Below the pieces are notes generated by a model. It had not been told where the DNA came from and searched no databases. It was given only the letters and a program-made list of their open reading frames with translations. 64,000 nucleotides of DNA from Parabacteroides sp. PM6-13 (GTDB taxonomy: Bacteria; Bacteroidota; Bacteroidia; Bacteroidales; Tannerellaceae), in the NCBI RefSeq assembly GCF_029892605.1, contig NZ_JARXWF010000008.1, positions 1 to 64,000 on the forward strand, written 5' to 3'. The position numbers were made by a program, and so were the translations under genes. Numbering within the stretch: position 1 is the stretch's first letter; every line of letters starts with the position of its first letter. Below are positions 9,329 through 32,070 of this stretch, one piece after another.

Positions 9329-9402
9329 GGGGCATTAGCTCATCTGGCTAGAGCGTTAGACTGGCAGTCTAAAGGTGATCGGTTCGAGTCCGATATGCTC
9401 CA
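9329..9402 (+). tRNA. tRNA-Ala (anticodon GGC)
   Basis: Manual cloverleaf. Acceptor GGGGCAU/AUGCUCC, D-stem GCUC/GAGC, anticodon stem UUAGA/UCUAA with loop CUGGCAG, T-arm AUCGG-UUCGAGU-CCGAU. CCA not encoded. Confidence 0.85.
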
Positions 9403-9407
9403 CAAAT
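9391..9407. repeat. attL core (17 bp cgatatgctccacaaat) overlapping the tRNA-Ala 3' end
   Basis: Identical 17-mer recurs at 23669..23685 in direct orientation. Confidence 0.8.
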
Positions 9408-10069: not shown

Positions 10070-10095
10070 ATCTATATCAATTAATTATTATTACT

Positions 10096-11115: not shown

Positions 11116-11140
11116 GTCTATACGTTTTAATGTTGATTTC

Positions 11141-11264: not shown

Positions 11265-11281
11265 ACATTAAAATGTATAGT

Positions 11282-11524: not shown

Positions 11525-11545
11525 TGATACATAAAGACAAATGAG

Positions 11546-11989: not shown

Positions 11990-12172
11990 TCAGTTAGACC
12001 CTCCAATATACTCTTCCAGAATCTTAGGCCGTCTAAATTGAGAAGTCTTTAGTGACATGTCGTTTCCACAGAATTGTGAAAGCGGGCCAAGGGTGTTAAA
12101 TTCTTTACGACCTATCAAAAAGAAAGGGCATCCCATCACAGAACACCCCTTAACGCTGAATCAAAGCACACA

Positions 12173-12364
12173 TCAATCGTCTACCTGTTCTGCCTTGTCG
12201 ATCACCTCAATGATAATATCTTCGCCGATATGGTCGCAAAACACCTGCTGTAATATCTTCCCTCTGCCATCCGTAGTGTTATCAATTACCGTGATAGTGT
12301 GCTGGTCTATCGGGTTGCCCTGAATGTGAGCAATGAGCCGCTTTACTTTCTCTTCACTTGCCAT
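12173..12364 (-). CDS. hypothetical small protein
   Basis: 63 aa, overlapping the upstream ORF. Confidence 0.3.
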   Translation of the reverse strand: MASEEKVKRLIAHIQGNPIDQHTITVIDNTTDGRGKILQQVFCDHIGEDIIIEVIDKAEQVDD

Positions 12365-12611
12365 CTTGCGCTGGTTTTATAACTTTCCATCCGAGTTTTT
12401 CAGACAGATCGTCAATTCTTGATTCTAATTCTTCATCCGTCAATCCTTCCAGTTCAAGAGCGGCAGCAATCTTCTTTGCCATACCTATTGGCATCGGTTT
12501 TAATCCGGTAAACGCTTCATACCACTCTGGAAACTCGCTCGTGTCCAAAACTCCAGTTGCCACAGATGACAACAATTTTGCTTTCTGTTCTTTTGATAGT
12601 TTAATCTTCAT
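12354..12611 (-). CDS. hypothetical small protein
   Basis: 85 aa, overlapping starts/stops in a minus-strand operon. Confidence 0.4.
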   Translation of the reverse strand: MKIKLSKEQKAKLLSSVATGVLDTSEFPEWYEAFTGLKPMPIGMAKKIAAALELEGLTDEELESRIDDLSEKLGWKVIKPAQDGK

Positions 12612-12936
12612 GATTCAAATTATTTAATGTTTGTATTCGCTCTGCCAGCCTATCCACAACCTCATCAGGAGCAGATAGTAACAGCTTCTCTAACTCTTTA
12701 TATTCGCAGGCAATCTGCGCATCAACACTCACAGACTGCTGCTTTGGCACAACGTACTGCATCAATTTCTCAAGTACCTGCACCCTGTCTTTAGGATCTA
12801 ACTCTTTCAAATCCTTTTCAAACTGCACTCGGTTACCATCAATAACCTGCTGAATCCAGCTTTTCAATTCCCCTGTTATCTTATTTGGCACTCCTTTAGG
12901 TCTGCCATTGGGGTTATTCGTCTGTCCTTTCTTCAT
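12601..12936 (-). CDS. hypothetical protein
   Basis: 111 aa. Confidence 0.4.
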   Translation of the reverse strand: MKKGQTNNPNGRPKGVPNKITGELKSWIQQVIDGNRVQFEKDLKELDPKDRVQVLEKLMQYVVPKQQSVSVDAQIACEYKELEKLLLSAPDEVVDRLAERIQTLNNLNHED

Positions 12937-13067
12937 CTTTGTAAATCTTTGTTGTTTTCAAAGCTTCCCGTGTACGCAAATAAGCAATTTTATTTTTCAA
13001 ATGATACCACGATCACCTAAGCGGAGAAAGTGGCTGAAATCTCTACCCTTCTCTCAAATATGAGATT

Positions 13068-13346
13068 CTAAACACCATTATCGTAGTACTGTTTTGCTTT
13101 TTCACGGTCTCGGCAACATTTAGCCCACTTTCCAAAGTCTTCGTTCCCAGGATAGCGAACACACTTTTTGTCCGGCTGTTTATATTCGTTGCCAATCTTA
13201 CGCTTAAAAACTTCGTAGTATATCACGCTCGGATCAGCTTCTAACGTACGACTGTATAGATACATCTCTGTTGCCGGGTTATAGCCTTCTTGTCTGAAGG
13301 TATCGCCGAACTTTGTAAATTCTTTGGGTAGTTCTCTAATATTCAT
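13068..13346 (-). CDS. hypothetical protein
   Basis: 92 aa, immediately downstream of the giant ORF. Confidence 0.4.
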   Translation of the reverse strand: MNIRELPKEFTKFGDTFRQEGYNPATEMYLYSRTLEADPSVIYYEVFKRKIGNEYKQPDKKCVRYPGNEDFGKWAKCCRDREKAKQYYDNGV

Positions 13347-13396
13347 CTGTCTTTATATTATGCCCCCGGATGAAGTTAATCACCCGGAGGTTGTTG

Positions 13397-16300: not shown

Positions 16301-18148
16301 CTTTGAGAGTTTCCCGTAGATTGATTCCAGGTCACTTATTTCATTATCGAGTATCCCTTTTGATTTGCGGATATTCACAACAAGCAGATCGATAGGGTTT
16401 GTTTGGTATGAAGAAGCACCTCCAAACATTCCTTGTGATACATAAACGGTCTTGTTGAATTTATCAATAGCATCCTGTACCTCTTTGCTAAACTCACTTC
16501 CGGAGCTTAATGATTCTTTCAGGGAATCAAGTAAAAGTGTTCCTTGTGCTTCTCCAAACTCTTTATTGAACGATTTGCGGATCTTATCAATGTTCTTCCC
16601 CCATTGCTCGGTGTAATTATCCACAGCAGATTGTGTGCCTTTTTCAATGGCTCTGTCTTTGGCAGATTGGATAGCGGCTTCTGATATGGCTTTATAAGCT
16701 CCTTCTATGTCTTTGAGGGTGCGTATCTCTTCATTTAAGCCATCAAGGTAGTTGCCGTATTTATTGATGATATTGTCCTTTGCTTTTTGATATGCCTCCG
16801 TCCCTTCCTTAGCGTTTTTGAGCCTCCCGAAAAGAATATCAATATTTACAGACTCTTCTTCTGTACTCTTGTTGAAGTCTTTCATTGTCTCCGCAAGCCT
16901 CTTTTGCGATTTCTCTGCCTCGGTTTGATATGTGCTCAATTTGTAGATGCCATAACCAAGACCTACAACTGCTGCTGTAAGCACAACATAAGGATTGGTA
17001 ACTAATAATGCTGCTGAGGCTTTTAATGATTTGGATAGGCTGGCCTGCGCAAGAGTAAACATCTTTGTTCGAGCGGCGGCAATGGCTTCTGCATTGGAAA
17101 GTTGAATACTGGCAGCGGCGGCAAGATGCTTCTCGACTACGGCCTGACGCATGATCTTTGTATTGAGGGACTGCAAAGCGGAGATCGAAATAAGAAGAGC
17201 TTTGTAGCTGCCATAGACAACAACTAATTCCGCTATTGTCTTGCCGATTATCTCGTAGTTCTCAACCATGAGAGTAGCACTCTCTATCGCCTTACCGATA
17301 ACACCTTCCGAGCTTTGACCAATCTCATTAAACATCACCTGAATGTTATCCTTAAGTGCTTCGATCTGCCCTGTAATGGCTTTAGATTGGTTCTCCATCA
17401 ATCCGCCATACATACCACCGGAAGATGTCATGTTCTTAAAGGCCTGTTCAACCTCTTTGAATCCAACCTTCCCGGCAGAGACAAGATCATTTACTTGACC
17501 TTCTGCAACTCCTAATACATTTGCAAGCTCTTTATAGATGGGGATACCACGCCCGGCAAACTGGCGTATATCCATGAGATAAGCCCTGCCTTGCATACGG
17601 AGTGTACCGTACAAATAAACGATGTCTCCGATAGACTGACCTGTTCCGGCTGCCACGTCGCCAAGCATTGTCATCTCCTGAATCACGCTATCCGCTTGCG
17701 ATCCGTATGCTATAAGCTGCTTTGCTGCTTCGGCTGCTGATTGCAAACCGAAAGGAGTACGTGCGGCAAAGTCTGTTAAGTCTCCAATGAGAACTTTAGC
17801 TTTATCACCACTCTTTAGCATAGTACCAAAGGCGATTTCTAATTGCTGGAACTCGCCACGAACATTTACCACTTCTTTTGCAAAAGCTGTGAGGGCTGCT
17901 GTACCACCAATACCGGCTAATGCTTTTTTGAAGTTACTATTAATGGATGCGCCAGCTTTAGAAGCTTCTTCCGCTAAACGGTTAAACTTCCCTTCAAGGG
18001 ATTGCAATTGCTTATCAAGCTTATTGAATGCTTTCGGATCGGCGGCCTTATCCATGCCTGAAAGTTTTGTTTTCAGGTCATCTATTTCTTTTTTTAGCTT
18101 CTTCAATGCCTCAAAATCGGCGCCTACACGAAAATATAATCCACTCAT
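13397..18148 (-). CDS. phage tail tape-measure-domain protein (1583 aa, long coiled-coil)
   Basis: N-terminal region (EFQQLEIAFGTML...LTDFAARTPFG...LIAYG) matches the conserved tape-measure domain of TP901-like phages. The remainder is an extended Lys/Glu-rich coiled coil with two hydrophobic segments. Confidence 0.75.
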   Translation of the reverse strand: MSGLYFRVGADFEALKKLKKEIDDLKTKLSGMDKAADPKAFNKLDKQLQSLEGKFNRLAEEASKAGASINSNFKKALAGIGGTAALTAFAKEVVNVRGEFQQLEIAFGTMLKSGDKAKVLIGDLTDFAARTPFGLQSAAEAAKQLIAYGSQADSVIQEMTMLGDVAAGTGQSIGDIVYLYGTLRMQGRAYLMDIRQFAGRGIPIYKELANVLGVAEGQVNDLVSAGKVGFKEVEQAFKNMTSSGGMYGGLMENQSKAITGQIEALKDNIQVMFNEIGQSSEGVIGKAIESATLMVENYEIIGKTIAELVVVYGSYKALLISISALQSLNTKIMRQAVVEKHLAAAASIQLSNAEAIAAARTKMFTLAQASLSKSLKASAALLVTNPYVVLTAAVVGLGYGIYKLSTYQTEAEKSQKRLAETMKDFNKSTEEESVNIDILFGRLKNAKEGTEAYQKAKDNIINKYGNYLDGLNEEIRTLKDIEGAYKAISEAAIQSAKDRAIEKGTQSAVDNYTEQWGKNIDKIRKSFNKEFGEAQGTLLLDSLKESLSSGSEFSKEVQDAIDKFNKTVYVSQGMFGGASSYQTNPIDLLVVNIRKSKGILDNEISDLESIYGKLSKKEDQKEVAPFVDFDKQLADTKGEIDNLKKNIENLRKGIAPIELKPGEQFDFAKAIEDEVKALQEAEKKLETMTGQDKDAKKSALDTNRLKSETADRLREIEEMSKKLAVEEREAEHELQQQRINLMEEGTDKTLAQINLDYDKRELEIMKRGAALIKQQQELERKTWEAANPDWKDKGMTFTSSVNVIADLPEEKQNLLAGLFQANTADRAKSEKDLLDSVLDKYQDFAKQREKLEEEYNDTVSFLNSQRTEENAEEINRALVVAKKQYEKGLKDINSSEFNELSKASDTFTKLFSNAANMSRKQLKSIIDETKRLIDNPSDLLKGLPFDEIKDIYNALIDKQNELDSRTNYPFSGIVKGLQKLKESAKLSEKAFTEADKAKKKLFEDNAETSRQEGLNYIYDGALEAVQGVSQLSDMIGQLADATGDQSLSDFTSLLKDWGNILEKTISGAKSGGIWGAVAGAVAGIGSSVFNGLIEEEERIRRMQNEQYDWQHRFNLLLSERNYLEEEYSSFFGKRGIEQAIKAYDSYKKTIGDYNDFVNEKLNIKPYGMDSYQGFSLANWSRTYADEVLIDAMKREMTVLQGSLIQTAKHVWYKQGSKDKFTTLFDFAPEIWGGDLNGEFDVEAARLFLETHKEISKELRTQLALAIDQKEAYDEAMKVLDDHIESTFGGIASDLTDIIFDAVRNGSDAWDLFEDSGLKVIDALGKALLQEMILGEYLEQYKPKIRDAFSLGDPKAVQEELLSITSGIFDSLPTVVDSWMSIAKDWDELAKANGWEIDRLKNEASTSDNSLAGALGKANQQSIDLLAGQMGAGRVALERGANAAESIRDILKEGLKVDSEKINAEMNGIMQQIFGGKGFGIDMTAIDSVKDGFQLNRDIMTNSFGELTAIRDLNSKIEQNMIQLNSTSKEIAEANRSIVANTERLSQLEGIAESGKAIAGNTDSAANSLKGSIEVKMKGGGLGL

Positions 18149-18170
18149 GATTCTTCTTATTTATTTGTTA

Positions 18171-18431
18171 TTACTTTTTTATTCCATCCCCGAACAGTTC
18201 TTTGCCCGGGTTCGCCTCTTTCCAGTGATTGATCCCGTCTAACCCCGCATCGCTGGAAAAGTAATCTTCCGTTGACTTGTAGCCCATGAGTTGGAATACA
18301 TCGTCGGTAGAGAACAGCATCTCACCGGTAACTTTATCTTTGGTCGCTCTAATCGTTTTGCCCTTCGCCACTAAAAAGAGATAGTGGCGCAGCTTATCGT
18401 CTTCTTTATACTCTATTAAAATTGGTTTCAT
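18171..18431 (-). CDS. hypothetical small protein
   Basis: 86 aa, directly upstream of the TMP gene. Confidence 0.4.
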   Translation of the reverse strand: MKPILIEYKEDDKLRHYLFLVAKGKTIRATKDKVTGEMLFSTDDVFQLMGYKSTEDYFSSDAGLDGINHWKEANPGKELFGDGIKK

Positions 18432-18450
18432 ATCTTTATCTGTTTGATTG

Positions 18451-18693
18451 TTAGTTTAAACTCCCACTCTCATTTAGCATATCCAAAACCACTTGCTTAT
18501 TGATTTGGCGATCATGTATAGCATCATTTTCGTTTAAAATTGTTTTTGCCAAATCAAATGCATCATTCGTCCGACCTTCGGTTATGGCCTGCATGATCTT
18601 GTAGGCGTTTGATACGTTCCGGCAGATCTCTCCGAATGTCACCTCTAAGGGTATATCCACTAATCTGATTTTTATTTCTTCTTCTGTTTTCAT
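18451..18693 (-). CDS. hypothetical small protein
   Basis: 80 aa with a 4-nt overlap onto the upstream ORF. Confidence 0.4.
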   Translation of the reverse strand: MKTEEEIKIRLVDIPLEVTFGEICRNVSNAYKIMQAITEGRTNDAFDLAKTILNENDAIHDRQINKQVVLDMLNESGSLN

Positions 18694-19193
18694 TTTGTGT
18701 CCTTTTTTATAGTGTGCAAACTGTGCAATTCTTTCAAGAAATCATCATAGCATTTCACCACAGCGTAATGCCCTCCGGCAGCTATGATTTGTTCCTGCAC
18801 TTGCTTCTGAATGTCGCTTTGTTTATCTCGCCCTATCTTGATCTCGAAATTGTAAACTTTGCCATTGTGGGTTACTTGTACATCGGCAATCCCTTTAGTG
18901 CTGCCTGATTTACGCCACATCTTTAGGCGGGCATCATATTGACCTTGTGAGTTCTGCCGTTGGTAAAAAGCTCCGTTAATCTTCGACCATATAGACAGGC
19001 ATTCGGTTAGTCCGTTCGCTGTATCGTCTCTAAATTTCTTTACAAACCGGCAGTTCTCAGGAATGGAACTATTACGATACTTAAACTCGAAATAGTCCTT
19101 CTCCAGTCGCTTAACTGATTCCGGCTTCTGATACCGGGCCACTACTTTACGAGGCTTCTTTTCTTCTCTTGGGATAAAGTCTTGCATATTCAT
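18690..19193 (-). CDS. VRR-NUC domain nuclease (PD-(D/E)xK)
   Basis: GIADVQV...FEIKIGRDKQSDIQKQ fits the VRR-NUC GxPD / ExK / D..S..Q pattern. 167 aa. Confidence 0.5.
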   Translation of the reverse strand: MNMQDFIPREEKKPRKVVARYQKPESVKRLEKDYFEFKYRNSSIPENCRFVKKFRDDTANGLTECLSIWSKINGAFYQRQNSQGQYDARLKMWRKSGSTKGIADVQVTHNGKVYNFEIKIGRDKQSDIQKQVQEQIIAAGGHYAVVKCYDDFLKELHSLHTIKKDTK

Positions 19194-20116
19194 ATAGCTT
19201 GTCGTTTACAGGTGAGTCCATACTGTTTGCAATACCAAAAGAATGTTCTAATGGATTTACGAGCGCAATGCTTCAGGCATCGGTCATATTGCTCATCGCA
19301 CTGCCAGTCCTCATACTTATCAGACTGCCTACTAACAATATGAAAGTAAGCTCTTCCACTCTCGCCAAACTCATTGGCCAGCGATTGACCAATAGCGTAC
19401 CAATCATCATACCGATCTGTCATGTCTATGCCTCGGACTGAAATGTCAGATACCAGCTTGTCTACCCAATACTCTACATCGTTATCCGGATTCACCTCTC
19501 TTGTCTTATATTCCTTCGGCTCGATCATATCGGTAAACACACCAGCCTCTTCATCCATATGAGGAAATTCATCGTATGACGCCCCACGTAGACGGGCAAC
19601 ATCTCTGCATTGTTTATCGACAACCAAACCACGCACTCTCAATACCTCAGCTATTGCCTGAAAATGCTCTTTATGCTTCTCCGGGTTAGCTATCTGTATA
19701 ATCATATACATTCCTTTCCCCGATGCAGATAAAGCGCCATAGCAATAGCCTGGGATATTAGGAAGGTTATGCTTAAGGCGATCCCAGTTCTTTATACTTG
19801 GGTTATCCTGTGCGTCCAGGTCGATGCAGATAAAGCCGGAATGTTTGATTAGGCCTTTATTACTTCGTTTAGAAAATACGCCTGAAACAGTAATGCAGGG
19901 TAGGGATGCCTTTATGCGCCTACGTTCATCTTTATCGGTGCAGCCTCTTACCACTTCAACCTGTCTTCTGTATTCTCCAGACAATAGCCAATCGAATAAG
20001 CTGACGGTCTTTGTAGGAGTGGCATCAAAATAATTTCTAAAAAAAGAGATAGGAACGGTCTCGAACTTTGTCAAAAGGTCGAGCCTCCATATTCTATCTA
20101 AATTGATTATGCTCAT
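19190..20116 (-). CDS. replication/primase-like protein (BT4734-like N-terminal domain + PriCT-like C-terminal domain)
   Basis: LPCITVSGVFSKRSNKGLIKHSGFICIDLD resembles the VirE/BT4734 N-domain. The C-terminus DDWYAIGQSLANEFGESGRAYFHIVS resembles a primase C-terminal domain. Start set at an internal Met; the ORF track starts at 20191. Confidence 0.6.
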   Translation of the reverse strand: MSIINLDRIWRLDLLTKFETVPISFFRNYFDATPTKTVSLFDWLLSGEYRRQVEVVRGCTDKDERRRIKASLPCITVSGVFSKRSNKGLIKHSGFICIDLDAQDNPSIKNWDRLKHNLPNIPGYCYGALSASGKGMYMIIQIANPEKHKEHFQAIAEVLRVRGLVVDKQCRDVARLRGASYDEFPHMDEEAGVFTDMIEPKEYKTREVNPDNDVEYWVDKLVSDISVRGIDMTDRYDDWYAIGQSLANEFGESGRAYFHIVSRQSDKYEDWQCDEQYDRCLKHCARKSIRTFFWYCKQYGLTCKRQAI

Positions 20117-20151
20117 GATAATGCTTATGATAATGATAATGTATATGTATA
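20114..20151. repeat. iteron-like ATGATAATG tandem repeats at the 5' end of the primase-like gene
   Basis: catgataatgcttatgataatgataatgtatatgtata, followed by the ttgaatac x2 direct repeat (20161..20180). Confidence 0.35.
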
Positions 20152-20205
20152 GGGTAGCCGTTGTATTCATTTGAATACTGTTGAATACCAATGTATACCG
20201 TAGTA

Positions 20206-20484
20206 TTATTTATTGCTGTTCCTCCCATCCCAATACTCTTGTATTTTCTTCCTATTGTCCTCTCGTTTCTCTTCATACTTCTTGTTGTCTTCATCTATAA
20301 ACGCTTGGAGCAAGTGAAAAACCACCGAAAGTTTCTCCGTGAAATCAGAAGGGAGTTCACTGCGCCATTGGTAGGCCATAATAGCCATAAATATCTTGCC
20401 ACGTTCGGAATCTGTTAGTATGGAGAGAATTGTCTCAAATTGCTCACGAACGAGTAAGGGTGGTTGTTTAGGTTTATTTGCCAT
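20206..20484 (-). CDS. hypothetical protein
   Basis: 92-aa ORF. Confidence 0.4.
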   Translation of the reverse strand: MANKPKQPPLLVREQFETILSILTDSERGKIFMAIMAYQWRSELPSDFTEKLSVVFHLLQAFIDEDNKKYEEKREDNRKKIQEYWDGRNSNK

Positions 20485-20485
20485 C

Positions 20486-20767
20486 TTATCGCCCTCCTTT
20501 AACCTTAAAGTACCACACTTTATTTTCTTTACTTATTGGGCAAATTCCCTGATGCGTCCGCTCGATCAGTCCGTCATCTTCCAACTGCCGGATAAGTCTT
20601 GTACAGTTAGGCCGGGTTATGCCTGTCGCCTCTGCTGCGTGGTAAGTAGTAGAATGATTGTCAATAAAGAAGGCAAATAAGGCTTGCTTTTGCAAACGGA
20701 TTCGTTTATCTTTGTGGTGATCTTCTTGCCCTTGCTGCCCGGCGGGGCTTTCTTTTTTTAGTTTCAT
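20486..20767 (-). CDS. HTH DNA-binding protein (winged-helix/MarR-like)
   Basis: FFIDNHSTTYHAAEATGITRPNCTRLIRQLEDDGLIER is an HTH. 93 aa. Confidence 0.5.
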   Translation of the reverse strand: MKLKKESPAGQQGQEDHHKDKRIRLQKQALFAFFIDNHSTTYHAAEATGITRPNCTRLIRQLEDDGLIERTHQGICPISKENKVWYFKVKGGR

Positions 20768-21066
20768 GCCCTGCGCCCTCCTTCTTTACGTCCAGCTAAC
20801 TCAAGTGCTAGCTCGGCATCAACTACAATCTTGCGCCCTATCTGCTTAATTGCTTTGTCTATTTTCCCGCTTGCCTTGATCCGGCTTGCGGTAGGAATAG
20901 AACAGTTAAATAGTCGGGCAATTCCAGATACACCATAGACATATTGTTTCTCTTGTGCTGTTTGAGCATTCACGTTCTGTCTAAAGTTTCCATGCTCCTG
21001 CAAGAAAAGAAACTCTTCACCAGTCATTTGCCAAATTGGTTTGGCTCTTAATTCTACAATATTCAT
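20764..21066 (-). CDS. excisionase-like HTH protein (MerR/HTH_17-like)
   Basis: VYGVSGIARLFNCSIPTASRIKASGKIDKAI is a phage excisionase-type HTH. 100 aa, overlapping the upstream ORF. Confidence 0.5.
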   Translation of the reverse strand: MNIVELRAKPIWQMTGEEFLFLQEHGNFRQNVNAQTAQEKQYVYGVSGIARLFNCSIPTASRIKASGKIDKAIKQIGRKIVVDAELALELAGRKEGGRRA

Positions 21067-21274
21067 AATCTACTTTTTTATTATCGTTAATTACTTGGTG
21101 CGTCCACCTGTTAGTAATCGATTACGATAGCAAATGTATAATTCCGAGTATCAGTAGAAAAGGAAGAATTGTGGGAATAAATATAAAAACAAAAAAGGCT
21201 AACTATCAATGTGTTAACCTTGCGTTTTTTGTGATTTGGGAAAGATTGTTTGGCGGTTTGGGAATATTTATGAA

Positions 21275-22237
21275 TTATTTTGATTCCTCGTAGTATTTGG
21301 TGATTGTGTTTTTAAAGGTTTTTGGGAAGCTATCTTCTAATAGTTTAATCTTTTTCACATTATTACTGTCTTTATTTACTTGTGGAAACACCCCTGAATC
21401 TATTAGTGGCATTACCGTTTTTGCGATAATATCCGCCGTTACACCTTTCTTTATTTTTAGTTTATCAAGAGTATATCCATGTTCTAAAAATTGCTTTATG
21501 GTTTCTTTGTTGTCATCACAAATAAATTGTAACTCAGTAATATGCTTTGATATATCCCTTGGCTCTTTCTTTGACTTAGGTAGAACCCTGTATTTGTCAT
21601 ATGATCCGAAGTTTTCTTCATAGTCACTATTTTCTTTTAAGATGTCTACTATGTCGATATCGAAATGAGCATAAATTGATGAAATGTCATAAAGAATTTG
21701 TTCTATGTCATTTGTTAAAAAAGTAACGTGATATCCGTTTTTTTCTAATGTTTCCAAACTGAGATAGGAGCAATATAATAGAGCATCTAACTGCTTTGCA
21801 AATAATTTAGCATATAAGATGCGATTGTGATGAGATTCTATTTTTAGCAGTTTCTCTGTTAGGTTTTTCTCCAATGCTAACCCTACTTTATAATTGAGAC
21901 CCTCGACAATTTTCCCCTCTATGTAGTAGAATCTTGATTTAGCATCCTCTATTTTCTTACGGAATGCGCTGGGCTTTTTTTTGCTTACGTCTGGCATTCG
22001 ATGTTTGGCTTCGTCCGAGTCAAGATATTTAAGATGTTCGTCCATGTTGAGAAGCTTCCACAATACGTCTGGATTTTTCATAAAAAAAACATAGTGCTGT
22101 ATTTGCTTATCCAGTAGCTTTACAATCGTGCGATAAAGGAAGCCATAAAATCCCTTTTGGTTTTTATAACGATCATAATGAAAGGCGTCATCGATTAGAA
22201 CATTTATTTCATCAAATACATATTCTAAATATTTCAT
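21275..22237 (-). CDS. AT-rich hypothetical protein (element cargo gene next to integrase)
   Basis: 320 aa, Lys/Ile/Tyr-rich with no recognisable motif. Clearly lower GC than its neighbours. Overlaps the integrase stop by 4 nt. Confidence 0.5.
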   Translation of the reverse strand: MKYLEYVFDEINVLIDDAFHYDRYKNQKGFYGFLYRTIVKLLDKQIQHYVFFMKNPDVLWKLLNMDEHLKYLDSDEAKHRMPDVSKKKPSAFRKKIEDAKSRFYYIEGKIVEGLNYKVGLALEKNLTEKLLKIESHHNRILYAKLFAKQLDALLYCSYLSLETLEKNGYHVTFLTNDIEQILYDISSIYAHFDIDIVDILKENSDYEENFGSYDKYRVLPKSKKEPRDISKHITELQFICDDNKETIKQFLEHGYTLDKLKIKKGVTADIIAKTVMPLIDSGVFPQVNKDSNNVKKIKLLEDSFPKTFKNTITKYYEESK

Positions 22238-23565
22238 ATTCCATCAAATTTACTCATTGCACTTGCTTTTATCTCATCCGCTATGTCTATGTACGGCTTC
22301 ATTGCTTTGTAGTCGCTATGCCCTGTCCACTTCATTACAACTTGTGCCGGGATACCTAATGACAACGCATTACAGATAAATGTTCGTCGTCCGCAATGCG
22401 TACCGATTAAAGCGTACTTGGGTGTAACCTCATCTATACGTTCATTTCCTTTATAGTATGTTTCCCGGATTGGTTCGTTTAGTTCTGCCAGCTCACAAAG
22501 CTCTTTTAGGAACTCATTCATCTTTTGGTTACTGATAACCGGCAGCACTTTACTATTAGGTAAATGCACGTCTTTGTACTTCTCCAGTATTGCCCGGCTA
22601 TGACTATTCAGCTCAATGATGAGGCTATCGGCTGTTTTTACGGTTGTTATTTCGATATGGTCCTCTTTCACATCACTACGTTTGAGGTTGTACACATCGG
22701 AATACCGTAGGCCGGTGAAGCATTGGAACAGGAATACATCCCGGACACGTTCAAGGTATTGTTTACCTTCCGGTATCTTATATTCTCTAAGCTGGGTAAG
22801 TTCTTTCCATGTGAGGAAGATTATCTTCTTTTTAGTCGTTTTCAATTTCGGCTTGAACGCCTCGAAAGAAGTGTTTTCGCAATGTCCTTTAGAAACTGCC
22901 CAGCGAAGGAACCATTTTAATAGATTGATCTGTTTTTCTATGGTGCTATTCCTCATCCCCACACTATAAAGGTAAGACACATATTCTCGAAGTACATTTT
23001 CATTCAACCTATCAAAGGTTAATCCAGGATCAAAATCTTTTATGTGTCCTTTTACTACATTGAGTTTTTTTATAGTTCCTAATGCCCAGTTGTTCTGCTC
23101 CCCACATTCAGCCATAAAGAGGTCAAAGTACAGATGAATGTTTTTTTGTTCTTGTCTATCATCGCCATTTTTCTTCCCAAAAGCATCTTTTAATTGATCC
23201 GGTGTCGGCGTCGTATCCTGTACCTCAAACTCCTTAAAGACAGCCTCTATTTTAGAATATAGATCCGATAGATCCGAGTTGATTTCGGACGCACTTTGTT
23301 TAAGTTTATTTGTACATCCTTTTTTTACTCGCTGTTTATCCAAATCCCATTTTGGCGCATCAATTCGGTAGCCGGTGGTAAACTCTATTCGGTTGCCACA
23401 ATAGACTACACGCATACGGATAGGCACATTCTCTGTAATAGGAATACCGTTTTTCTTTCGGCTTTCAAGTGAAAAGACTATATTTCGCTTTATATTCATG
23501 GGTGCAAAAGTGGGTGTAAAATTAAATCCACACCCAAAAGTACACCCATTTTTTGAGATATGCAA
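22234..23565 (-). CDS. int: site-specific tyrosine integrase
   Basis: 443 aa. N-terminal SAM-like and core-binding region plus a C-terminal catalytic domain (HCGRRTF, RYSDVYNLK) typical of Bacteroides phage/CTn integrases. Adjacent to attR. Confidence 0.9.
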   Translation of the reverse strand: MHISKNGCTFGCGFNFTPTFAPMNIKRNIVFSLESRKKNGIPITENVPIRMRVVYCGNRIEFTTGYRIDAPKWDLDKQRVKKGCTNKLKQSASEINSDLSDLYSKIEAVFKEFEVQDTTPTPDQLKDAFGKKNGDDRQEQKNIHLYFDLFMAECGEQNNWALGTIKKLNVVKGHIKDFDPGLTFDRLNENVLREYVSYLYSVGMRNSTIEKQINLLKWFLRWAVSKGHCENTSFEAFKPKLKTTKKKIIFLTWKELTQLREYKIPEGKQYLERVRDVFLFQCFTGLRYSDVYNLKRSDVKEDHIEITTVKTADSLIIELNSHSRAILEKYKDVHLPNSKVLPVISNQKMNEFLKELCELAELNEPIRETYYKGNERIDEVTPKYALIGTHCGRRTFICNALSLGIPAQVVMKWTGHSDYKAMKPYIDIADEIKASAMSKFDGI

Positions 23566-23668
23566 CGATATTCTAATATATTTTATTTATCTTTGCGCTT
23601 CATAAAAGGCTGGTTAATAGCGTGATTTTAAGATGATATGATATTTTGCAATATAAAAGGTTAAAGAG

Positions 23669-23685
23669 CGATATGCTCCACAAAT
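23669..23685. repeat. attR core (cgatatgctccacaaat)
   Basis: Perfect 17-bp direct repeat of 9391..9407. Confidence 0.8.
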
Positions 23686-23715
23686 CATCAAAAAAGGAGG
23701 CTTTCTTTCGAAAGT

Positions 23716-23766
23716 CTCCTTTTTTGATTACCTCTTCCTGCGGATAAACAGCACTGTCAGGGCGAC
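23716..23766. repeat. 51-bp direct repeat copy 1 (ctccttttttgattacctcttcctgcggataaacagcactgtcagggcgac)
   Basis: 50/51 identical to 24274..24324. Begins with the descending arm of a terminator-like hairpin (aaaaaaggaggctttctttcgaaagtctcctttttt). Confidence 0.8.
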
Positions 23767-23919
23767 AAATAAGGCTCACTCCCAAAAGCAAAACCCCACA
23801 ATAGCATTTGTAAAAACAAAAAACATATTGTATATTTGTACTTAATATGACCTCCCACGCTTCCCGTCAGAACAGCGCACCCGGGGAGGTCTTCGAGTTT
23901 CTATATCATTCCTACTACT

Positions 23920-24270
23920 ATGAAATACATTAAGCAACCTCTCTCCATTCAGCAGCAAATAGACAAACTAAAATCCAGAGGATTGATCATTGATAATGAA
24001 GAAATTGCAGCTGGCTATCTATCGAATATTAGCTATTATCGCTTAAGAGCTTACACCTATCCATTCCAAAACAATACAGATGAAGAAAAAGATCACCACT
24101 TCACTCGAAGCGATATACATTTCAGAGACATCCTTGACATAATCAGCCCTCAGAGTGATTTCAAGAAAAATCTTATTAGCATTATTCAAGACGGTGGGAA
24201 TTTATTAAAAATCAAAGATATGGGATTCCCTGAAAACTGGGCACATCTTGATGTGTGGAAAGAAATATAA
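23920..24270 (+). pseudogene. Abi_2 (AbiD/AbiF-like) abortive-infection protein, N-terminal fragment only
   Basis: IQQQIDKLKSRGLIIDNEEIAAGYLSNISYYRLRAYTYPF matches the Abi_2 family N-terminus. The ORF stops at 116 aa against about 300 aa for the family. Confidence 0.5.
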
Positions 24271-24273
24271 AGC

Positions 24274-24324
24274 CTCCTTTTTTAATTACCTCTTCCTGCG
24301 GATAAACAGCACTGTCAGGGCGAC
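24274..24324. repeat. 51-bp direct repeat copy 2
   Basis: See 23716..23766. Starts 3 nt after the Abi fragment stop codon. Confidence 0.8.
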
Positions 24325-24369
24325 GAAGAAACAAACCACCACCAAACATTGGGGGATAAAGTCTACTTA

Positions 24370-25077
24370 TCAAGCATTCATTTTCTGCTTATTCTTGTCA
24401 TAAGGGGTTTCGCAATATTCACAAAAAGGTGCGGTAGTGCCATCATAGACAACTTCATTAAAAGCTCCACAAGCTTTACAGTCCCAGGAAATAACTTGCT
24501 CTAAGGCGATTGGTTTCTTCAAATTATTCATATTAAAAAAGAAATTCACATAATCTTCTGATGGGGAAAGAGTTAGTATCCCACAATCCTGAAAATCCTG
24601 CAGAATGGGCCAAAGTTTTTCAAAAGAATATTTTTCTCCTTTATGATTTATCTGAAAAGTATGTTTGTTGATCCTATTCTTCTCCAATTTCAAAATTTCT
24701 AATAAAGAATCTGCCAAAGATGTATATTGTTTATATTTCCCATATTCGATTAACATGAAAAAACCTGCGATCACCCACGAAAGAACCATTGAACGGGGAA
24801 GATACTCTTCAAAAGAGCTAAAAGAAATACCCTCCTCTTTCAGAGGCAAAAACAGGCAAAAGCCAATAGTAAATATCAAAAAACCCCAGAACAGAGAGGA
24901 GCCCAATGATATTTTATCTGTAATCAAAAACCGGGGGACCTTGCGTAAAGAATTCTTTGAGAAGGCCCGATATATAGCGACCAACGCACCTAAAGGGGCA
25001 AAAATAATGGAGAATAAATACATCAAGATAGCACCTATCCCTACTTTATGCACTATTACAAATTTATTTAACATCAT
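24370..25077 (-). CDS. membrane protein with C-terminal zinc ribbon (partner of SPFH/COG4260 protein)
   Basis: Three to four hydrophobic helices. C-terminal CKACGAFN...CEYCETPYDK zinc ribbon. Tightly linked to the upstream gene. Start trimmed to an internal Met to avoid overlap. Confidence 0.5.
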   Translation of the reverse strand: MMLNKFVIVHKVGIGAILMYLFSIIFAPLGALVAIYRAFSKNSLRKVPRFLITDKISLGSSLFWGFLIFTIGFCLFLPLKEEGISFSSFEEYLPRSMVLSWVIAGFFMLIEYGKYKQYTSLADSLLEILKLEKNRINKHTFQINHKGEKYSFEKLWPILQDFQDCGILTLSPSEDYVNFFFNMNNLKKPIALEQVISWDCKACGAFNEVVYDGTTAPFCEYCETPYDKNKQKMNA

Positions 25078-26462: not shown

Positions 26463-26532
26463 TGAACCGGCAGTTGAAACTGCCGGCAAGAGATAGGCCT
26501 GCGGCCACTCACTCTGTTCGCAGAGAAGAGAG
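26463..26532. repeat. solo IS-terminus-like repeat with palindrome ccggcagttgaaactgccgg (copy A)
   Basis: About 52 bp near-identical to 32004..32070 and related to the left terminus of the IS at 27511..27555. Confidence 0.7.
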
Positions 26533-26896: not shown

Positions 26897-27241
26897 ATGG
26901 ATAATTTGGAATACAAAGGATACTTTGGAAGTGTCGAATATAACAAAACAGACGATTGCCTGGTTGGTAAAGTTCTTGGCATGAGCAAAGATTCTATCAC
27001 CTATGAGGGAAAGGATATTACAGAACTCAAAGCCGATTTTGAGGCAGGAATAGACAGCTATATTGAAGGATGTGAAGAATTAGGCATTAAGCCGAGAAAA
27101 GCCTTTAGCGGCTCTCTAAATGTGCGCATTTCATCCGAAATACATAGCCGGGTTGCTATGCTTGCGGAAAAAGCGGGTATTTCGATTAATGCTTTCATCA
27201 AAGAAACATTGGAGGAAAAAGTTTCAACTGCCGGCTTTTAA
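26897..27241 (+). CDS. hicB: type II antitoxin HicB family
   Basis: N-terminal HicB fold (YKGYFGSVEYNKTDDCLVGKV) and a C-terminal RHH-like DNA-binding tail (ISINAFIKETLEEK). Confidence 0.65.
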   Translation: MDNLEYKGYFGSVEYNKTDDCLVGKVLGMSKDSITYEGKDITELKADFEAGIDSYIEGCEELGIKPRKAFSGSLNVRISSEIHSRVAMLAEKAGISINAFIKETLEEKVSTAGF

Positions 27242-27510
27242 GTTTGCCATTCTCATAAATATGATCTATATACCCTCCTATATGGTCTATAAAGATCTCT
27301 TTCGAGTGGGCATATTTGCGGATATGCGTATAGAGTTCATACCGATGATGTGAGTTTTGCAAATAGGGAATCCTGTTTTTAGTAATCCAGACACAATGAA
27401 TAGGAATAGATAAGTAAGGCATAGTTTTTGGTTTTGTGTTAATGACATAAATATAGGAATAATATTGTTTAAACAAATTGCACACTATACACCTCTTTAG
27501 AGCAAGCGAA

Positions 27511-29333
27511 GCAAGTGGCCGCAGGCCTATCTTTTGCCGGCAGTTTCAGAGACTGTGTAAAAAACCATATTCACCATGCCTGCCTGTAGTGCTTGCGTAG
27601 TGTACACGCATAAAAAGATGAGAGCGTGAGCCACCGGTTCATTCTTAACAATAACCTTGTGTCTCATTTTTGAGGGAGAGCCTGCTTGGACAAATGATTT
27701 TCCAAAGTATATTTTGCTCTTTTCCGACAAAAAAGGCTCCCCAGAGTATGTTTTTTGCCTTTTGGGCATAATTTGCTATTCTTTCCAATAATTTGGACAT
27801 GTCTTCTATATTCATCAAGCGCTTGAGGTTATAGCAAGATGCGTACAAGTCTATTTCAGCCTGTACTTTTCTTTTGCCTGTCAATAGGAGTGGGACTTTG
27901 CCCATCCACCGTTTCATGGTTCCAAAAATATGTTCGATATGATCCTTCCTTTCTTTGATAAGAGCCTGGTATTTTTCTGTCTCCATGCGCTTCGCATATT
28001 CCTCCCGGAAGGGATCCTGTATCTTGACTTTCAGTCGCCTACCATTTCTAAATGTGGTACATCTTCCAAATAAAGCACAATGCCTGCAATCGGAGGCTTT
28101 AGCTTGATAAATAAGATATTCAGCACTCTCTTGCTTGACATTCTTTGGCTTGCGTTTCAATAATTTTCCTTTGCTGCAAGTGTAGCTATCTGTGGACTGG
28201 TCATATCTAAATTCAACGCCTGCTTTCTTGTCATGACTACTTGAGGTCCCTTCTTTCAATGGTATAGCGCAAGATGTTATCCCGTTTGATTCGATGGATT
28301 TGATTTGATCAATATTATCATATCCTTTATCGGCTTCTACTATTTCGGGAACAAGGCCCAGTTGCTCTTTGGTCTTGTTTACATTATTTTCAATACAGTC
28401 TAGGTCAATCACATCGGGAGTCAACTCGGCTAAAACAATCATTTTATGTTTAGCATCTGTTCCGCCTTGAAGGTTGTAAGCGGGAATAAATCCGTCCCGG
28501 CTTTTCATCAAGTGGGCATCCGGATCTGTAGGACAATAACTGCTATGATCACTCTGTTTGATTTGACTCTTAATTTCTTCCAGCTCTTTTATCTTTTGCC
28601 GCAGACTGACGATTTCTTCCAACAAAGATTTATTGATATCCGCGCTCAGTTCACAGCTATCGAGTGCTTCGGTCAGTTCGTCTGTGTGATCATTGTTGTT
28701 TAACTCAGAAAGCCAAGTATGTAATTGGTCTTCCATTTTCTTTATGCGACTAGACAATGCCTTCTCTGTTAAAACCTTTTCTTTAGAAACACATGCCTTT
28801 ATTTTACTCCCGTCATAAATAATCTTTTCTCCACTGATAAAACCTTCGTCGCGCAAAAAGCGGCGAAAACTCAGCGTTACGTAACGAATTGCTTCTGTAT
28901 TATCTTTACGATAGTCCGCAATTGTTTTATGGTCAGGGTGAAGATCATGCAACAACCATTTTACTTCGATATTGCGATAGGTTTCAGATTCCAATCGACG
29001 ACTACTGCTTATCCGATTTAAATAACCATACAGATACAGTTTCAGTAAATCACAAGGATGGTATGACTTACGACCTTTTTCTTTGGTGCCTCTATATTGA
29101 AACTTTTCCGGGGATTGCCCATAAAGCATCTCAACCAAAGCATCTATCAGGCGAACGTAATTCTGTTCACCGATACTCTCGTCAAGGGTATTGAAAAGAG
29201 AGGCTTGATGGCGAGAAACGCCAGTTTTGTAATGCATAGCTGTTGTTTGTTTGTCTGAATAAATGTAAGAAATTTTATCCAATTTAGCTAATTTGCCACA
29301 ATGCATTTTTACACAGTCTCTTCAACTGCCGGA
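27511..29333. mobile_element. IS1182-family insertion sequence
   Basis: Single 553-aa DDE transposase flanked by imperfect inverted termini (27511..27555 and 29311..29333, cacagtctct..aactgccgg). Confidence 0.65.
27645..29306 (-). CDS. IS1182-family transposase (DUF772 N-domain + DDE)
   Basis: SYHPCDLLKLYLYGYLNRISSSRRLE is the IS5/IS1182 N-terminal domain. DDE region downstream. Possible alternative start at Met24. Confidence 0.8.
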   Translation of the reverse strand: MHCGKLAKLDKISYIYSDKQTTAMHYKTGVSRHQASLFNTLDESIGEQNYVRLIDALVEMLYGQSPEKFQYRGTKEKGRKSYHPCDLLKLYLYGYLNRISSSRRLESETYRNIEVKWLLHDLHPDHKTIADYRKDNTEAIRYVTLSFRRFLRDEGFISGEKIIYDGSKIKACVSKEKVLTEKALSSRIKKMEDQLHTWLSELNNNDHTDELTEALDSCELSADINKSLLEEIVSLRQKIKELEEIKSQIKQSDHSSYCPTDPDAHLMKSRDGFIPAYNLQGGTDAKHKMIVLAELTPDVIDLDCIENNVNKTKEQLGLVPEIVEADKGYDNIDQIKSIESNGITSCAIPLKEGTSSSHDKKAGVEFRYDQSTDSYTCSKGKLLKRKPKNVKQESAEYLIYQAKASDCRHCALFGRCTTFRNGRRLKVKIQDPFREEYAKRMETEKYQALIKERKDHIEHIFGTMKRWMGKVPLLLTGKRKVQAEIDLYASCYNLKRLMNIEDMSKLLERIANYAQKAKNILWGAFFVGKEQNILWKIICPSRLSLKNETQGYC

Positions 29334-32003: not shown

Positions 32004-32070
32004 CAAGCAGTTTCAACTGCCGGCAAGAGATAGGCCTGCGGCCACTCACTCTGTTCGCAGAGAAGAAGCG
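32004..32070. repeat. solo IS-terminus-like repeat (copy C) with palindrome gcagtttcaactgc
   Basis: aactgccggcaagagataggcctgcggccactcactctgttcgcagagaaga is shared with 26463..26532. Confidence 0.7.

What the first reader, a model, noticed from the sequence alone, without database searches (positions are those of the whole stretch)
23716..24324. 51-bp direct repeats bracketing a truncated Abi_2 abortive-infection gene right next to attR
Two 51-bp copies (50/51 identical) flank a 507-bp segment holding only the N-terminal 116 aa of an Abi_2 (AbiD/F-like) protein. Copy 1 starts inside a terminator hairpin 30 bp beyond attR. This looks like either a large target-site duplication from insertion of a small cassette, or a scar of DR-mediated deletion that removed the rest of an Abi locus. 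It may mark a recombination hotspot for defense-gene exchange beside the integration site.
Basis: seen in the sequence. Interest (0 to 1): 0.55.

Follow-up and report, generated by a model that had tools for sequence, protein, structure and literature searches.

The report
Decayed AbiF toxin cassette with duplicated target
A small, now-dead phage-defence toxin–antitoxin cassette (AbiF plus its RNA antitoxin) sits just past a tRNA gene between two copies of about 56 bases of local DNA, and related cassettes in other gut bacteria carry the same kind of long, variable flanking duplication, which suggests they insert without any recombinase of their own.

Summary
The repeat is real. Positions 23716-23766 and 24274-24324 match at 50/51. 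The match extends to 56 bp (23711-23766 / 24269-24324) and more weakly to 62 bp. It has only two copies in the window and no hit in three public collections.

The 0.5-kb insert is a complete but decayed AbiF–AbiFr type III toxin–antitoxin cassette. It has a Bacteroidetes promoter and an abiF-motif RNA hairpin (23849-23891). Its Abi_2 ORF is not an N-terminal fragment. It is residues ~1-73 fused in frame to the last ~43 residues, with about 200 residues including the HEPN RNxxxH site deleted.

Copy 1 is the right arm, plus 40 nt, of the tRNA-Ala terminator just beyond a prophage attR. Copy 2 is an orphan half-hairpin.

Best reading: a target duplication made when the cassette was inserted by illegitimate recombination.
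- No recombinase, inverted repeats or conserved ends were found.
- About 14-20% of 63 Bacteroidales AbiF loci carry locus-specific flanking repeats of 22-326 bp, against under 1% of control positions.
- One sibling has a matching empty site with a single 77-bp copy.

No empty allele exists for the window itself. A 12-nt identity with the prophage attL junction remains unexplained.

The parts
9329..9403 (+). tRNA-Ala(GGC), integration target of the prophage-like element
   Evidence: ARAGORN
9391..9407 (.). attL core CGATATGCTCCACAAAT. The next 6 nt (AAGGCT, 9408-9413) are the first bases of the element.
   Evidence: the repeat finder family D4; sequence
22234..23499 (-). Tyrosine integrase of the 14-kb element 9408-23668
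   Evidence: Pfam Phage_integrase, Phage_int_SAM_5 and Arm-DNA-bind_5; gene call
23669..23685 (.). attR core, 17/17 identical to attL
   Evidence: Integrase relatives share the arm up to this point and then run into a host trailer plus terminator.
23687..23728 (.). 19-bp bidirectional terminator hairpin, read as the native tRNA-Ala terminator
   Evidence: the repeat finder pair I1; fold dG -26.2 kcal/mol, z -8.9
23711..23766 (+). Repeat copy 1: right hairpin arm plus 40 nt. A weaker match continues to 23772.
23765..23776 (+). ACAAATAAGGCT at the copy 1/insert junction, identical to the attL junction at 9402-9413. Unexplained.
   Evidence: The 11-mer CAAATAAGGCT occurs 3 times in the window, at 9403, 20674 and 23766.
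23767..24268 (+). Inserted AbiF–AbiFr cassette (502 bp; 496 bp if the repeat is taken as 62 nt)
23831..23838 (+). Bacteroidetes-type -7 promoter box TATATTTG (consensus TAnnTTTG), about 10 nt upstream of the RNA motif
   Evidence: Read from the sequence; the same box at the same spacing in relatives. The consensus is from established knowledge.
23849..23891 (+). abiF-motif RNA hairpin (AbiFr antitoxin-like): outer stem GACCUCCC/GGGGAGGUC, inner stem CGCU/AGCG
   Evidence: Rfam RF03085 at 24.1 bits (gathering score 37), E 0.019. Present upstream of essentially every relative. 5 of 8 outer-stem pairs show compensatory changes.
23920..24270 (+). Abi_2/AbiF ORF of 116 aa with an in-frame internal deletion. 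The junction lies at about 24127-24141 (…RDILD|IISP…). The HEPN RNxxxH motif is missing.
   Evidence: Pfam; alignment A1; PDB 8VZ6 two-piece match
24269..24324 (+). Repeat copy 2: an orphan right arm plus 40 nt that does not fold into a hairpin. A weaker match continues to 24330.
24370..25077 (-). 235-aa gene with no Pfam match, convergent on the terminator. It has lost its half of the hairpin because of the insertion.

Best explanation
The two copies are a duplication of about 56 bp of target DNA. It was created when a self-contained AbiF–AbiFr cassette (own promoter, abiF-motif RNA antitoxin, HEPN RNase toxin) was inserted by illegitimate, recombinase-independent recombination. The insertion went into the bidirectional terminator between tRNA-Ala and the convergent 235-aa gene.

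One end of the incoming fragment joined in the hairpin loop. The other joined 56 bp further on. Repair or fill-in between these staggered joints left the intervening segment on both sides of the insert.

Later the toxin gene lost about 600 bp in frame, including its catalytic RNxxxH site. The junction lies between two similar short stretches (DIIDLY… and …YILDIISP). What remains is a dead toxin plus an apparently intact promoter and RNA.

Shown: the repeat, the anatomy of the insert, the internal deletion, the family-wide recurrence, and one filled/empty pair in a sibling. Inferred: that the window's repeat arose at insertion, and the joining mechanism itself.
For: (1) The repeat is local sequence: copy 1 completes the terminator hairpin and copy 2 is an orphan arm.
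(2) The insert is a tight functional unit that ends at the gene's stop codon.
(3) The 502 bp hold no recombinase. The DR-bounded inserts have no terminal inverted repeats and no shared ends.
(4) The repeat is not dispersed: 2 copies in the window and 0 hits in genome, metagenome and viral collections.
(5) Recurrence: exact flanking repeats of at least 20 nt occur in 9/63 AbiF loci against 1/1361 control positions, and of at least 14 nt in 13/63 against 6/886. Two of the nine (L061, L064) are the cassette's own promoter and leader repeated after the gene rather than duplicated target. Extended lengths range from 22 to 326 bp. All are different, locus-specific sequences, often the promoter or 5' end of the next gene.
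(6) A sibling pair: L060 carries a 1312-bp cassette between two 77-bp copies. L103, whose right flank is 98.9% identical, has one copy and no cassette.
(7) In L076, as in the window, one junction lies in a hairpin loop.
(8) Integrase relatives show that the hairpin region after the att core is host trailer, not element DNA.
Against: No empty allele of the window's own site was found. The only other strain seen (99.4% identical) has the same arrangement.

No enzyme or defined mechanism accounts for duplications of 22-326 bp. No consistent microhomology was seen at the junctions.

The copy 1/insert junction reads ACAAATAAGGCT, identical to the prophage attL junction. That is far too exact to be chance and hints that the tRNA-Ala att site or its integrase played a part.

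Some sibling repeats are only about 90% identical (L053, L062). This fits donor/recipient homology better than a duplication that was identical at birth.

In L092 the repeat's left boundary is the same in three copies, which suggests homologous accretion rather than independent events.
Confidence: 0.5

Rival explanations
1. Origin linked to the att site. The cassette lay (or still lies) directly after tRNA-Ala (…CCACAAAT|AAGGCTCAC…). The 85-nt stretch 23686-23770 (terminator hairpin plus copy 1) is then a patch of 'empty-type' trailer placed between two ACAAAT copies (23680-85 and 23765-70). It could have been carried in by the prophage after an aberrant excision at a secondary site, or placed there by integrase-mediated recombination with the secondary site GGGCG|ACGAAG|AAAC. 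On this view copy 1 is the newcomer and no long target duplication was made at cassette insertion.
For: ACAAATAAGGCT is identical at the attL junction (9402-9413) and at the copy 1/insert junction (23765-23776), and the 11-mer occurs 3 times in the window. An unrelated phage attP-like site reads GCGATATGCTCCACAAATAAG…, which suggests that AAATAAG may be the native trailer. Integrases of the same family lie on the same viral contigs as full-length abiF cassettes. The imperfect repeat (54/56) fits copies from two strains.
Against: It needs two rare events. The half-site left of the second ACAAAT (GGGCG) is unlike the tRNA side. Copy 2 is an orphan hairpin arm, so the cassette must in any case have been joined inside a pre-existing hairpin. 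Relatives of the element end at the tRNA-like core and carry no such patch. It does not explain the nine sibling loci that have flanking repeats and no tRNA or integrase nearby.
Confidence: 0.2
2. Campbell-type integration. A circular DNA carrying the cassette plus one copy of the 56 bp recombined homologously with the chromosomal 56 bp, for example a circle popped out of a conspecific strain by repeat-by-repeat recombination. The repeats then act as a portable attachment site that lets cassettes move and stack within a species.
For: It gives exactly the repeat-insert-repeat layout. It explains diverged sibling repeats (about 90% in L053 and L062). It also explains multi-cassette arrays with the same repeat and the same left boundary, as in L092 with YhcG nuclease, GNAT toxin pair and abiF, and triple repeats in L053 and L070.
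Against: It only postpones the question, because the first repeat-insert-repeat must arise another way. Homologies of 22-56 bp are poor RecA substrates. No circular form and no second context for this cassette or repeat was found.
Confidence: 0.15
3. Scar of a larger element. The repeats are the att identity blocks of a once-complete integrative island. Internal deletions removed everything except the addictive toxin–antitoxin cassette, leaving a CIME-like remnant.
For: The site is next to a tRNA integration hotspot inside a 23-kb low-GC island. The Abi gene has itself suffered a deletion. TA modules resist loss.
Against: The gene deletion is internal and in frame, and the cassette's natural end abuts copy 2. 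No recombinase fragment or other relic lies in the 502 bp. Nine sibling inserts contain only the cassette plus 0-450 nt of extra sequence, which is implausibly uniform for random decay. The filled/empty sibling pair differs by the cassette alone. Only about 10 of 80 loci have an integrase within 6 kb.
Confidence: 0.1
4. Chance similarity, a dispersed REP-like repeat, or an assembly artefact.
For: A different, genuinely REP-like palindromic repeat does exist nearby, at 26470-26529, 27509-27548 (inverted) and 32007-32066.
Against: 0 matches were expected and 2 found. There are no copies elsewhere. The copies differ at 2-4 positions. The same layout is assembled independently from other samples.
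Confidence: 0.02

Closest known systems
AbiF–AbiFr type III toxin–antitoxin / abortive-infection system (Pfam Abi_2 PF07751; Rfam abiF RF03085; PbAbiF–ncRNA structure PDB 8VZ6; C. difficile AbiF–RCd22)
   Same: An Abi_2 protein is preceded in cis by a short conserved hairpin RNA on the same transcript. A full-length relative (L014) matches 8VZ6_A at E 6e-43. The RNA has the abiF architecture: outer stem, bulged A, inner stem. In the described systems the RNA binds and neutralises the HEPN RNase (PMC12373285; PMC12737573, citing Zilberzwige-Tal et al., Cell 2025).
   Different: The window copy lacks about 200 residues including the catalytic R…H motif, so it cannot be an active toxin. The Bacteroidales RNA scores below Rfam's gathering threshold (24.1 against 37 bits) and occurs as a single motif, not two as in RCd22. 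The papers consulted do not mention flanking repeats: the term 'direct repeat' has 0 occurrences in PMC12373285.
Insertion sequences that make long, variable-length target duplications (IS1634 family; named from my own knowledge. PMC2266710, 'IS4 family goes genomic', was listed by the search for 'variable-length direct repeats' but was not opened.)
   Same: Flanking direct repeats made of target sequence, tens to hundreds of bp long, varying from one insertion to the next.
   Different: Those elements encode a DDE transposase and have terminal inverted repeats. The abiF inserts have neither, and their ends are not conserved. The IS1182-like transposase in the window (27645-29306) has no demonstrable link to the cassette.
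CIME / accretion at tRNA att sites (integrase-less remnants flanked by att repeats next to an intact integrative element; from my own knowledge)
   Same: A small repeat-flanked, recombinase-less unit lies directly beside the att site of an integrase-bearing element at a tRNA gene.
   Different: The 56-bp repeat is not the att core of the neighbouring element (17 nt, CGATATGCTCCACAAAT) and contains no tRNA sequence. Only a 12-nt junction motif is shared.
Homology-facilitated illegitimate recombination, microhomology-mediated template switching, or Campbell-type insertion-duplication (from my own knowledge)
   Same: Foreign DNA is inserted without a dedicated recombinase. Breakpoints vary, junctions can fall at hairpins, and target DNA can be duplicated.
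   Different: These are generic processes usually reported with target deletions. A strong bias to duplications around one cassette family has not been described, as far as the papers I consulted show.

Membership tests
AbiF/Abi_2 (PF07751) toxin of type III TA | Significant match to the Abi_2 profile or to a solved AbiF structure | tested here: met
   Pfam Abi_2 E 1.1e-7, 32.8 bits against cut-off 25.6, covering only profile positions 2-54 of 184. 8VZ6_A E 1.1e-9, in two pieces.
AbiF/Abi_2 (PF07751) toxin of type III TA | HEPN catalytic Rx4-6H motif (RNxxxH; R210/H215 in PbAbiF) | tested here: not met
   The motif (LRNTCAHH in full-length relatives) lies in the deleted segment. It is absent from the 116-aa ORF. 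The ORF is a pseudogene or remnant, not an active member.
AbiF/Abi_2 (PF07751) toxin of type III TA | Cis-encoded abiF-motif ncRNA immediately upstream | tested here: met
   Hairpin at 23849-23891. Rfam RF03085 full-length match, sub-threshold at 24.1 bits against gathering score 37. Conserved 20-90 nt upstream of the start codon in essentially all 80 relatives. 5 outer-stem pairs show compensatory changes.
AbiF/Abi_2 (PF07751) toxin of type III TA | Toxicity neutralised by the RNA; phage defence | not testable with these tools
   Known only from the literature for relatives (PMC12373285, PMC12737573).
Transposon / insertion sequence / MITE | Terminal inverted repeats or conserved element ends | tested here: not met
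   The best inverted match between the first and last 80 nt is 6-8 nt in 9 inserts. Homology between inserts stops 50-190 nt short of the repeats.
Transposon / insertion sequence / MITE | Target duplication of fixed, short length | tested here: not met
   Lengths of 22, 29, 40, 56, 77, 99, 139, 177 and 326 bp.
Transposon / insertion sequence / MITE | Encoded transposase or recombinase | tested here: not met
   The only ORF with a family match in 23767-24268 is the Abi_2 remnant.
Site-specific integrative element remnant (att repeats, CIME-like) | Flanking repeats equal the att core used by a cognate integrase, typically the tRNA 3' end | tested here: inconclusive
   The repeat shares nothing with the 17-nt core. 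However, the copy 1/insert junction ACAAATAAGGCT equals the attL junction.
Site-specific integrative element remnant (att repeats, CIME-like) | Relatives exist as full elements bounded by the same repeats | tested here: not met
   No other occurrence of the repeat was found. An integrase lies within 6 kb of the Abi gene in only about 10 of 80 loci.
Dispersed repeat (REP/BIME-like) | Many copies per genome, palindromic unit | tested here: not met
   2 copies in 64 kb and none in the collections. Copy 2 does not fold.

The most novel reading that the evidence does not exclude
AbiF–AbiFr cassettes, and probably other small toxin–antitoxin or defence cassettes in Bacteroidales, spread by a so-far undescribed route. 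They carry no recombinase, or use one acting in trans. The route duplicates tens to hundreds of bp of promoter- or terminator-proximal target. The duplicated segments then act as species-specific landing pads on which further cassettes stack, as in the three-cassette array of L092. The window's locus would be an old, decayed product of that process.
Probability: 0.25. Interest if true: 0.65.

Novelty: new member of a known kind. Interest (0 to 1): 0.42.

Why it matters
By itself the locus is an ordinary relic: a dead copy of a known toxin–antitoxin defence gene in a tRNA-linked island. What it points to is of wider use. AbiF–AbiFr, the proposed ancestor of Cas13, behaves in Bacteroidales as a minimal self-contained cassette. 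It repeatedly lands in housekeeping intergenic regions (upstream of folE or dtd, in tRNA terminators). It does so with long, variable target duplications and no recombinase of its own. If that reflects a specific mechanism rather than selection acting on rare illegitimate events, it would explain how single-gene defence modules disperse outside recognisable mobile elements. It would also explain how small defence arrays are built. The filled/empty pair (L060/L103) and the list of repeat-flanked loci make this directly testable.

Tried and rejected
- Exact-pattern scans for the repeat found nothing: a 33-mer in genome contigs, and a 26-mer in metagenome contigs and viral contigs. No empty site and no dispersed family turned up this way.
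- Identity look-ups of the Abi ORF, the 235-aa neighbour, DUF4301 and the integrase found only the source genome (Parabacteroides sp. PFB2-12, GCA_029893125.1), plus fragments of a 99.4%-identical strain with the same arrangement.
- The first Rfam scan over 4 kb missed the abiF motif. It appeared only in a 181-nt scan, and below threshold.
- I looked for shared flanks among the 80 related loci to find filled/empty pairs. There were none.
- I tested for terminal inverted repeats, filler DNA copied from the flanks, and junction microhomology. Nothing was consistent. L060 alone has a 12/13 inverted copy of the 13 nt left of its repeat.
- My argument that each copy carries one private substitution relative to a perfect hairpin arm was weakened by the second strain. 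Its copy 2 has the 'copy 1' base.
- A scan for the L092 array repeat in metagenomes gave 0 hits.
- I considered and rejected an integron attC, a retrotransposed mRNA (the insert includes the promoter), and CTnDOT-like GTANNTTTGC targeting (it fits L060 only).
- The second 60-nt repeat pair in the window (26470/32007) turned out to be a different thing: a REP-like palindromic element with an inverted third copy beside a Y1 transposase fragment.

Full report
**Observation**

The window comes from Parabacteroides sp. PFB2-12 (GCA_029893125.1, contig JARXXD010000011.1). The reported repeat exists.
- Positions 23716-23766 and 24274-24324 are 50/51 identical and bracket 507 bp.
- Ungapped extension gives 62 nt at 94% (23711-23772 / 24269-24330). 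BLAST gives 56 nt at 96%.
- The exact 39-mer occurs only twice in 64 kb, with none expected from shuffles.
- No part of the repeat was found in one genome per species of GTDB, in JGI metagenomes or in IMG/VR.

It is therefore neither chance nor a dispersed repeat.

**Context**

A low-GC island runs from tRNA-Ala (9329-9403) to about 32.1 kb in a roughly 50% GC chromosome. Its first 14 kb is a prophage-like element.
- Its att cores, CGATATGCTCCACAAAT, lie at 9391-9407 and 23669-23685.
- Its tyrosine integrase is at 22234-23499 on the minus strand.

Two nucleotides after the right core begins a 19-bp hairpin at 23687-23728 (dG -26.2 kcal/mol, z -8.9). Relatives of the integrase in viral contigs share the arm up to a tRNA-like core and then run into a host trailer plus a terminator hairpin. 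The hairpin is therefore best read as the native, bidirectional terminator shared by tRNA-Ala and the convergent 235-aa gene (24370-25077). Repeat copy 1 is the right arm of this hairpin plus the next 40 nt. Copy 2 has the arm but no partner and does not fold.

**What lies between the copies**

The insert (23767-24268) contains three parts.
- A Bacteroidetes -7 box, TATATTTG, at 23831-23838.
- A 43-nt hairpin at 23849-23891.
- An ORF of 116 aa at 23920-24270.

The hairpin is a sub-threshold but full-length match to Rfam abiF RNA (RF03085; 24.1 bits against a gathering score of 37; E 0.019 in a 181-nt scan).

I fetched 80 loci encoding relatives of the protein from Bacteroidales genomes, plus nine viral contigs.
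- Essentially every one has the same motif 20-90 nt upstream of the start codon, behind the same kind of promoter.
- The 8-bp outer stem shows compensatory changes at 5 pairs, for example GACCGCUC/GAGCGGUC and GGUCUCCC/GGGGAGACC. The 4-bp inner stem and its flanks are invariant.

A full-length relative (317 aa, L014) matches PDB 8VZ6_A at E 6e-43. That entry is the Prevotellaceae AbiF solved with its ncRNA. In that family the RNA (AbiFr, or RCd22 in C. difficile) is a type III-like antitoxin that binds and silences the HEPN RNase (PMC12373285; PMC12737573, citing Zilberzwige-Tal et al. 2025).

The cassette is thus a known kind. The Bacteroidales RNA is a variant that Rfam's threshold misses.

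**The gene is not an N-terminal stump**

Alignment A1 and the two-piece hit to 8VZ6_A (aa 9-56 to 13-60; aa 70-113 to 257-299) give the same picture. Residues ~1-73 are fused in frame to the last ~43 residues. About 200 residues are missing, including the RNTCAHH catalytic motif. The junction (…RDILD|IISP…) lies between two similar short stretches found in full-length proteins (DIIDLY… and …YILDIISP), which suggests a slippage or microhomology deletion. This last point is an inference.

The natural C-terminus is retained, and the stop codon T|AA straddles the insert/copy-2 boundary. The truncation is therefore unrelated to the repeats.

Several other short database proteins are independent N+C fusions with different junctions (P0031, P0044, P0052, P0066, P0002). 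Detecting them requires the frame to be kept, so nothing can be inferred about selection. A second strain differs in the remnant by two substitutions, both non-synonymous. That is consistent with decay.

**Origin of the repeat: family evidence**

I searched the related loci for repeats flanking the gene within 700 nt upstream and 400 nt downstream.

| Exact repeat length | AbiF loci | Control positions in the same loci |
|---|---|---|
| at least 20 nt | 9/63 | 1/1361 |
| at least 14 nt | 13/63 | 6/886 |

Two of the nine loci at the 20-nt threshold (L061, L064) are the cassette's own promoter and leader repeated after the gene, not duplicated target.

BLAST-extended lengths are listed below.

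| Locus | Repeat length (bp) | Identity |
|---|---|---|
| L076 | 22 | 100% |
| L099 | 29 | 100% |
| L092 | 40 | 100% |
| window | 56 | 96% |
| L060 | 77 | 100% |
| L065 | 99 | 98% |
| L053 | 139 | 91% |
| L035 | 177 | 98% |
| L062 | 326 | 91% |

- Every repeat is a different, locus-specific sequence.
- Several contain the promoter or the 5' end of the next gene. Examples are the folE promoter in L060, and 53 nt upstream plus 124 nt of dtd in L035. The duplication therefore leaves the downstream gene intact.
- The inserts share only promoter, RNA and gene. Homology between them stops 50-190 nt short of the repeats.
- They have no terminal inverted repeats and no recombinase. Only about 10 of 80 loci have a tyrosine recombinase within 6 kb.

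For L060 I found the empty allele. L103 is a contig whose right flank is 98.9% identical. It has the same flanking genes, a single 77-bp copy and no cassette. That is a direct demonstration, in a sibling, of cassette insertion accompanied by a long target duplication.

In L076 one junction falls in a hairpin loop, as it does in the window.

**Most likely mechanism**

Four features argue against a dedicated transposase or integrase: variable repeat length, variable insert ends, absence of recognition sequences, and junctions at hairpins. They point instead to illegitimate integration of a DNA fragment whose two ends joined at staggered nearby positions, or to a replication template switch. Selection would then keep outcomes that do not destroy neighbouring genes, and would keep a cassette that is both addictive and protective.

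For the window this means one end was joined in the terminator loop and the other 56 bp downstream. I put this at about 0.5.

**What does not fit**

(a) The 12 nt across the copy 1/insert junction (ACAAATAAGGCT, 23765-23776) are identical to the attL junction of the prophage (9402-9413). That junction is the last 6 nt of the core plus the first 6 nt of the element. The 11-mer CAAATAAGGCT occurs a third time at 20674, against my estimate of about 0.04 expected. There are two readings.
- The incoming fragment began at the 3' end of a donor's tRNA-Ala, in a donor where the cassette sat directly after the tRNA.
- Alternatively, the 85-nt hairpin-plus-copy-1 stretch is itself a patch inserted into attR between two ACAAAT copies, by aberrant excision or secondary-site action of the integrase.

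An unrelated phage attP-like site reading …CCACAAATAAG… gives the second reading some support. The co-occurrence of this integrase family with abiF cassettes on viral contigs does too. I give it 0.2.

(b) Some sibling repeats are about 90% identical. In addition, L092 has four copies of one repeat delimiting three cassettes (YhcG PDDEXK nuclease; small ORF plus GNAT; abiF), with the same left boundary in three of them. This looks like homologous, Campbell-type accretion once a first duplication exists (0.15).

(c) No empty allele of the window's own site is available. The only other strain (Logan SRR29082273/75, 99.4% identical) has the same deleted gene and copy 2. It shows three differences within the 62 nt of copy 2.

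**Verdict**

- The 'large target-site duplication' reading is the best supported.
- The 'scar of repeat-mediated deletion' reading is not supported.
- The 'hotspot' idea is unproven here.

The object itself is a decayed member of a known system, which is ordinary. The recurrent long, variable duplications around AbiF–AbiFr cassettes, with one verified filled/empty pair, are a modestly surprising lead that can be tested.

Noticed in passing
window 26470-26529, 27220-27235, 27509-27548 (inverted), 32007-32066: A second long repeat (60 nt, 97%) brackets a 5.5-kb block holding HicAB, a Y1 transposase fragment, an IS1182-like DDE transposase, a Gp49/HTH pair and an HU-like gene. It has an inverted third copy next to the Y1_Tnp fragment and contains the palindromes GCAGTTnnAACTGC and GGCCGCAGGCC. 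It looks like a REP/RAYT-type element rather than a target duplication. The copy at 32007-32066 marks the right edge of the low-GC island.
   Followed up: partly
window 9403-9413, 20674-20684, 23766-23776: The 11-mer CAAATAAGGCT occurs three times on the same strand, against my estimate of about 0.04 expected: at the attL junction, inside the prophage-like element, and at the copy 1/insert junction. It may be a recognition site of the element's integrase or an accessory protein. Unresolved.
   Followed up: partly
L092:3520-7110: A water-buffalo gut MAG carries four copies of a 40-200-nt promoter-bearing repeat. They delimit three cassettes (YhcG/DUF1016 PDDEXK nuclease; 50-aa ORF plus GNAT acetyltransferase; abiF) upstream of a host 4HBT thioesterase gene. 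This is a small repeat-delimited defence/TA cassette array.
   Followed up: partly
L060:1269-1371 compared with L103: In the sibling with a verified empty site, the first 13 nt of the insert (ATAAACATACAAT) are the reverse complement, at 12/13, of the 13 nt just left of the 77-bp duplication (ATTGCATGTTTAT). This would fit a fold-back or template-switch step. It was not seen in the other eight inserts.
   Followed up: partly
L017 (minus strand, oriented positions ~5070-5450); L061/L064:6927-7022; L099 about 717 nt upstream of the gene: Extra 'solo' copies of the promoter plus abiF-motif RNA occur without a following Abi gene, or directly after one. In L017 the solo copy is followed by a terminator. 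These are possible orphan antitoxin RNAs or relics of lost cassettes.
   Followed up: no
proteins P0002, P0031, P0044, P0052, P0066: Other metagenomic Abi_2 ORFs are also in-frame N-terminus plus C-terminus fusions lacking the HEPN core, each with a different junction. This may be recurrent inactivation of the toxin, but detection requires the frame to be kept, so it may be ascertainment bias.
   Followed up: partly
L023-L034 (Prevotella, Hoylesella, Segatella, Alloprevotella, Bacteroides propionicifaciens): An AbiF protein 94-100% identical across many genera, with an identical leader, indicates recent spread on a shared mobile element. Viral contigs carrying it also encode an integrase 65-66% identical to the window's (L132, L135, L142).
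   Followed up: no
window 9408-23668: The 14-kb tRNA-Ala element encodes an integrase, a DUF3853 protein, a MarR-like HTH protein, a DUF6291 protein, a primase-like protein (BT4734-like_N + PriCT_2) and a 1583-aa protein hitting TMP_3. No capsid or terminase gene was evident in the part examined, so it may be a satellite or a defective prophage.
   Followed up: no
window 24269-24330 compared with L107/L108: Copy 2 differs at 3 of 62 positions between two strains that are otherwise 99.4% identical over 3.7 kb. This may reflect relaxed constraint or conversion between the two copies.
   Followed up: no
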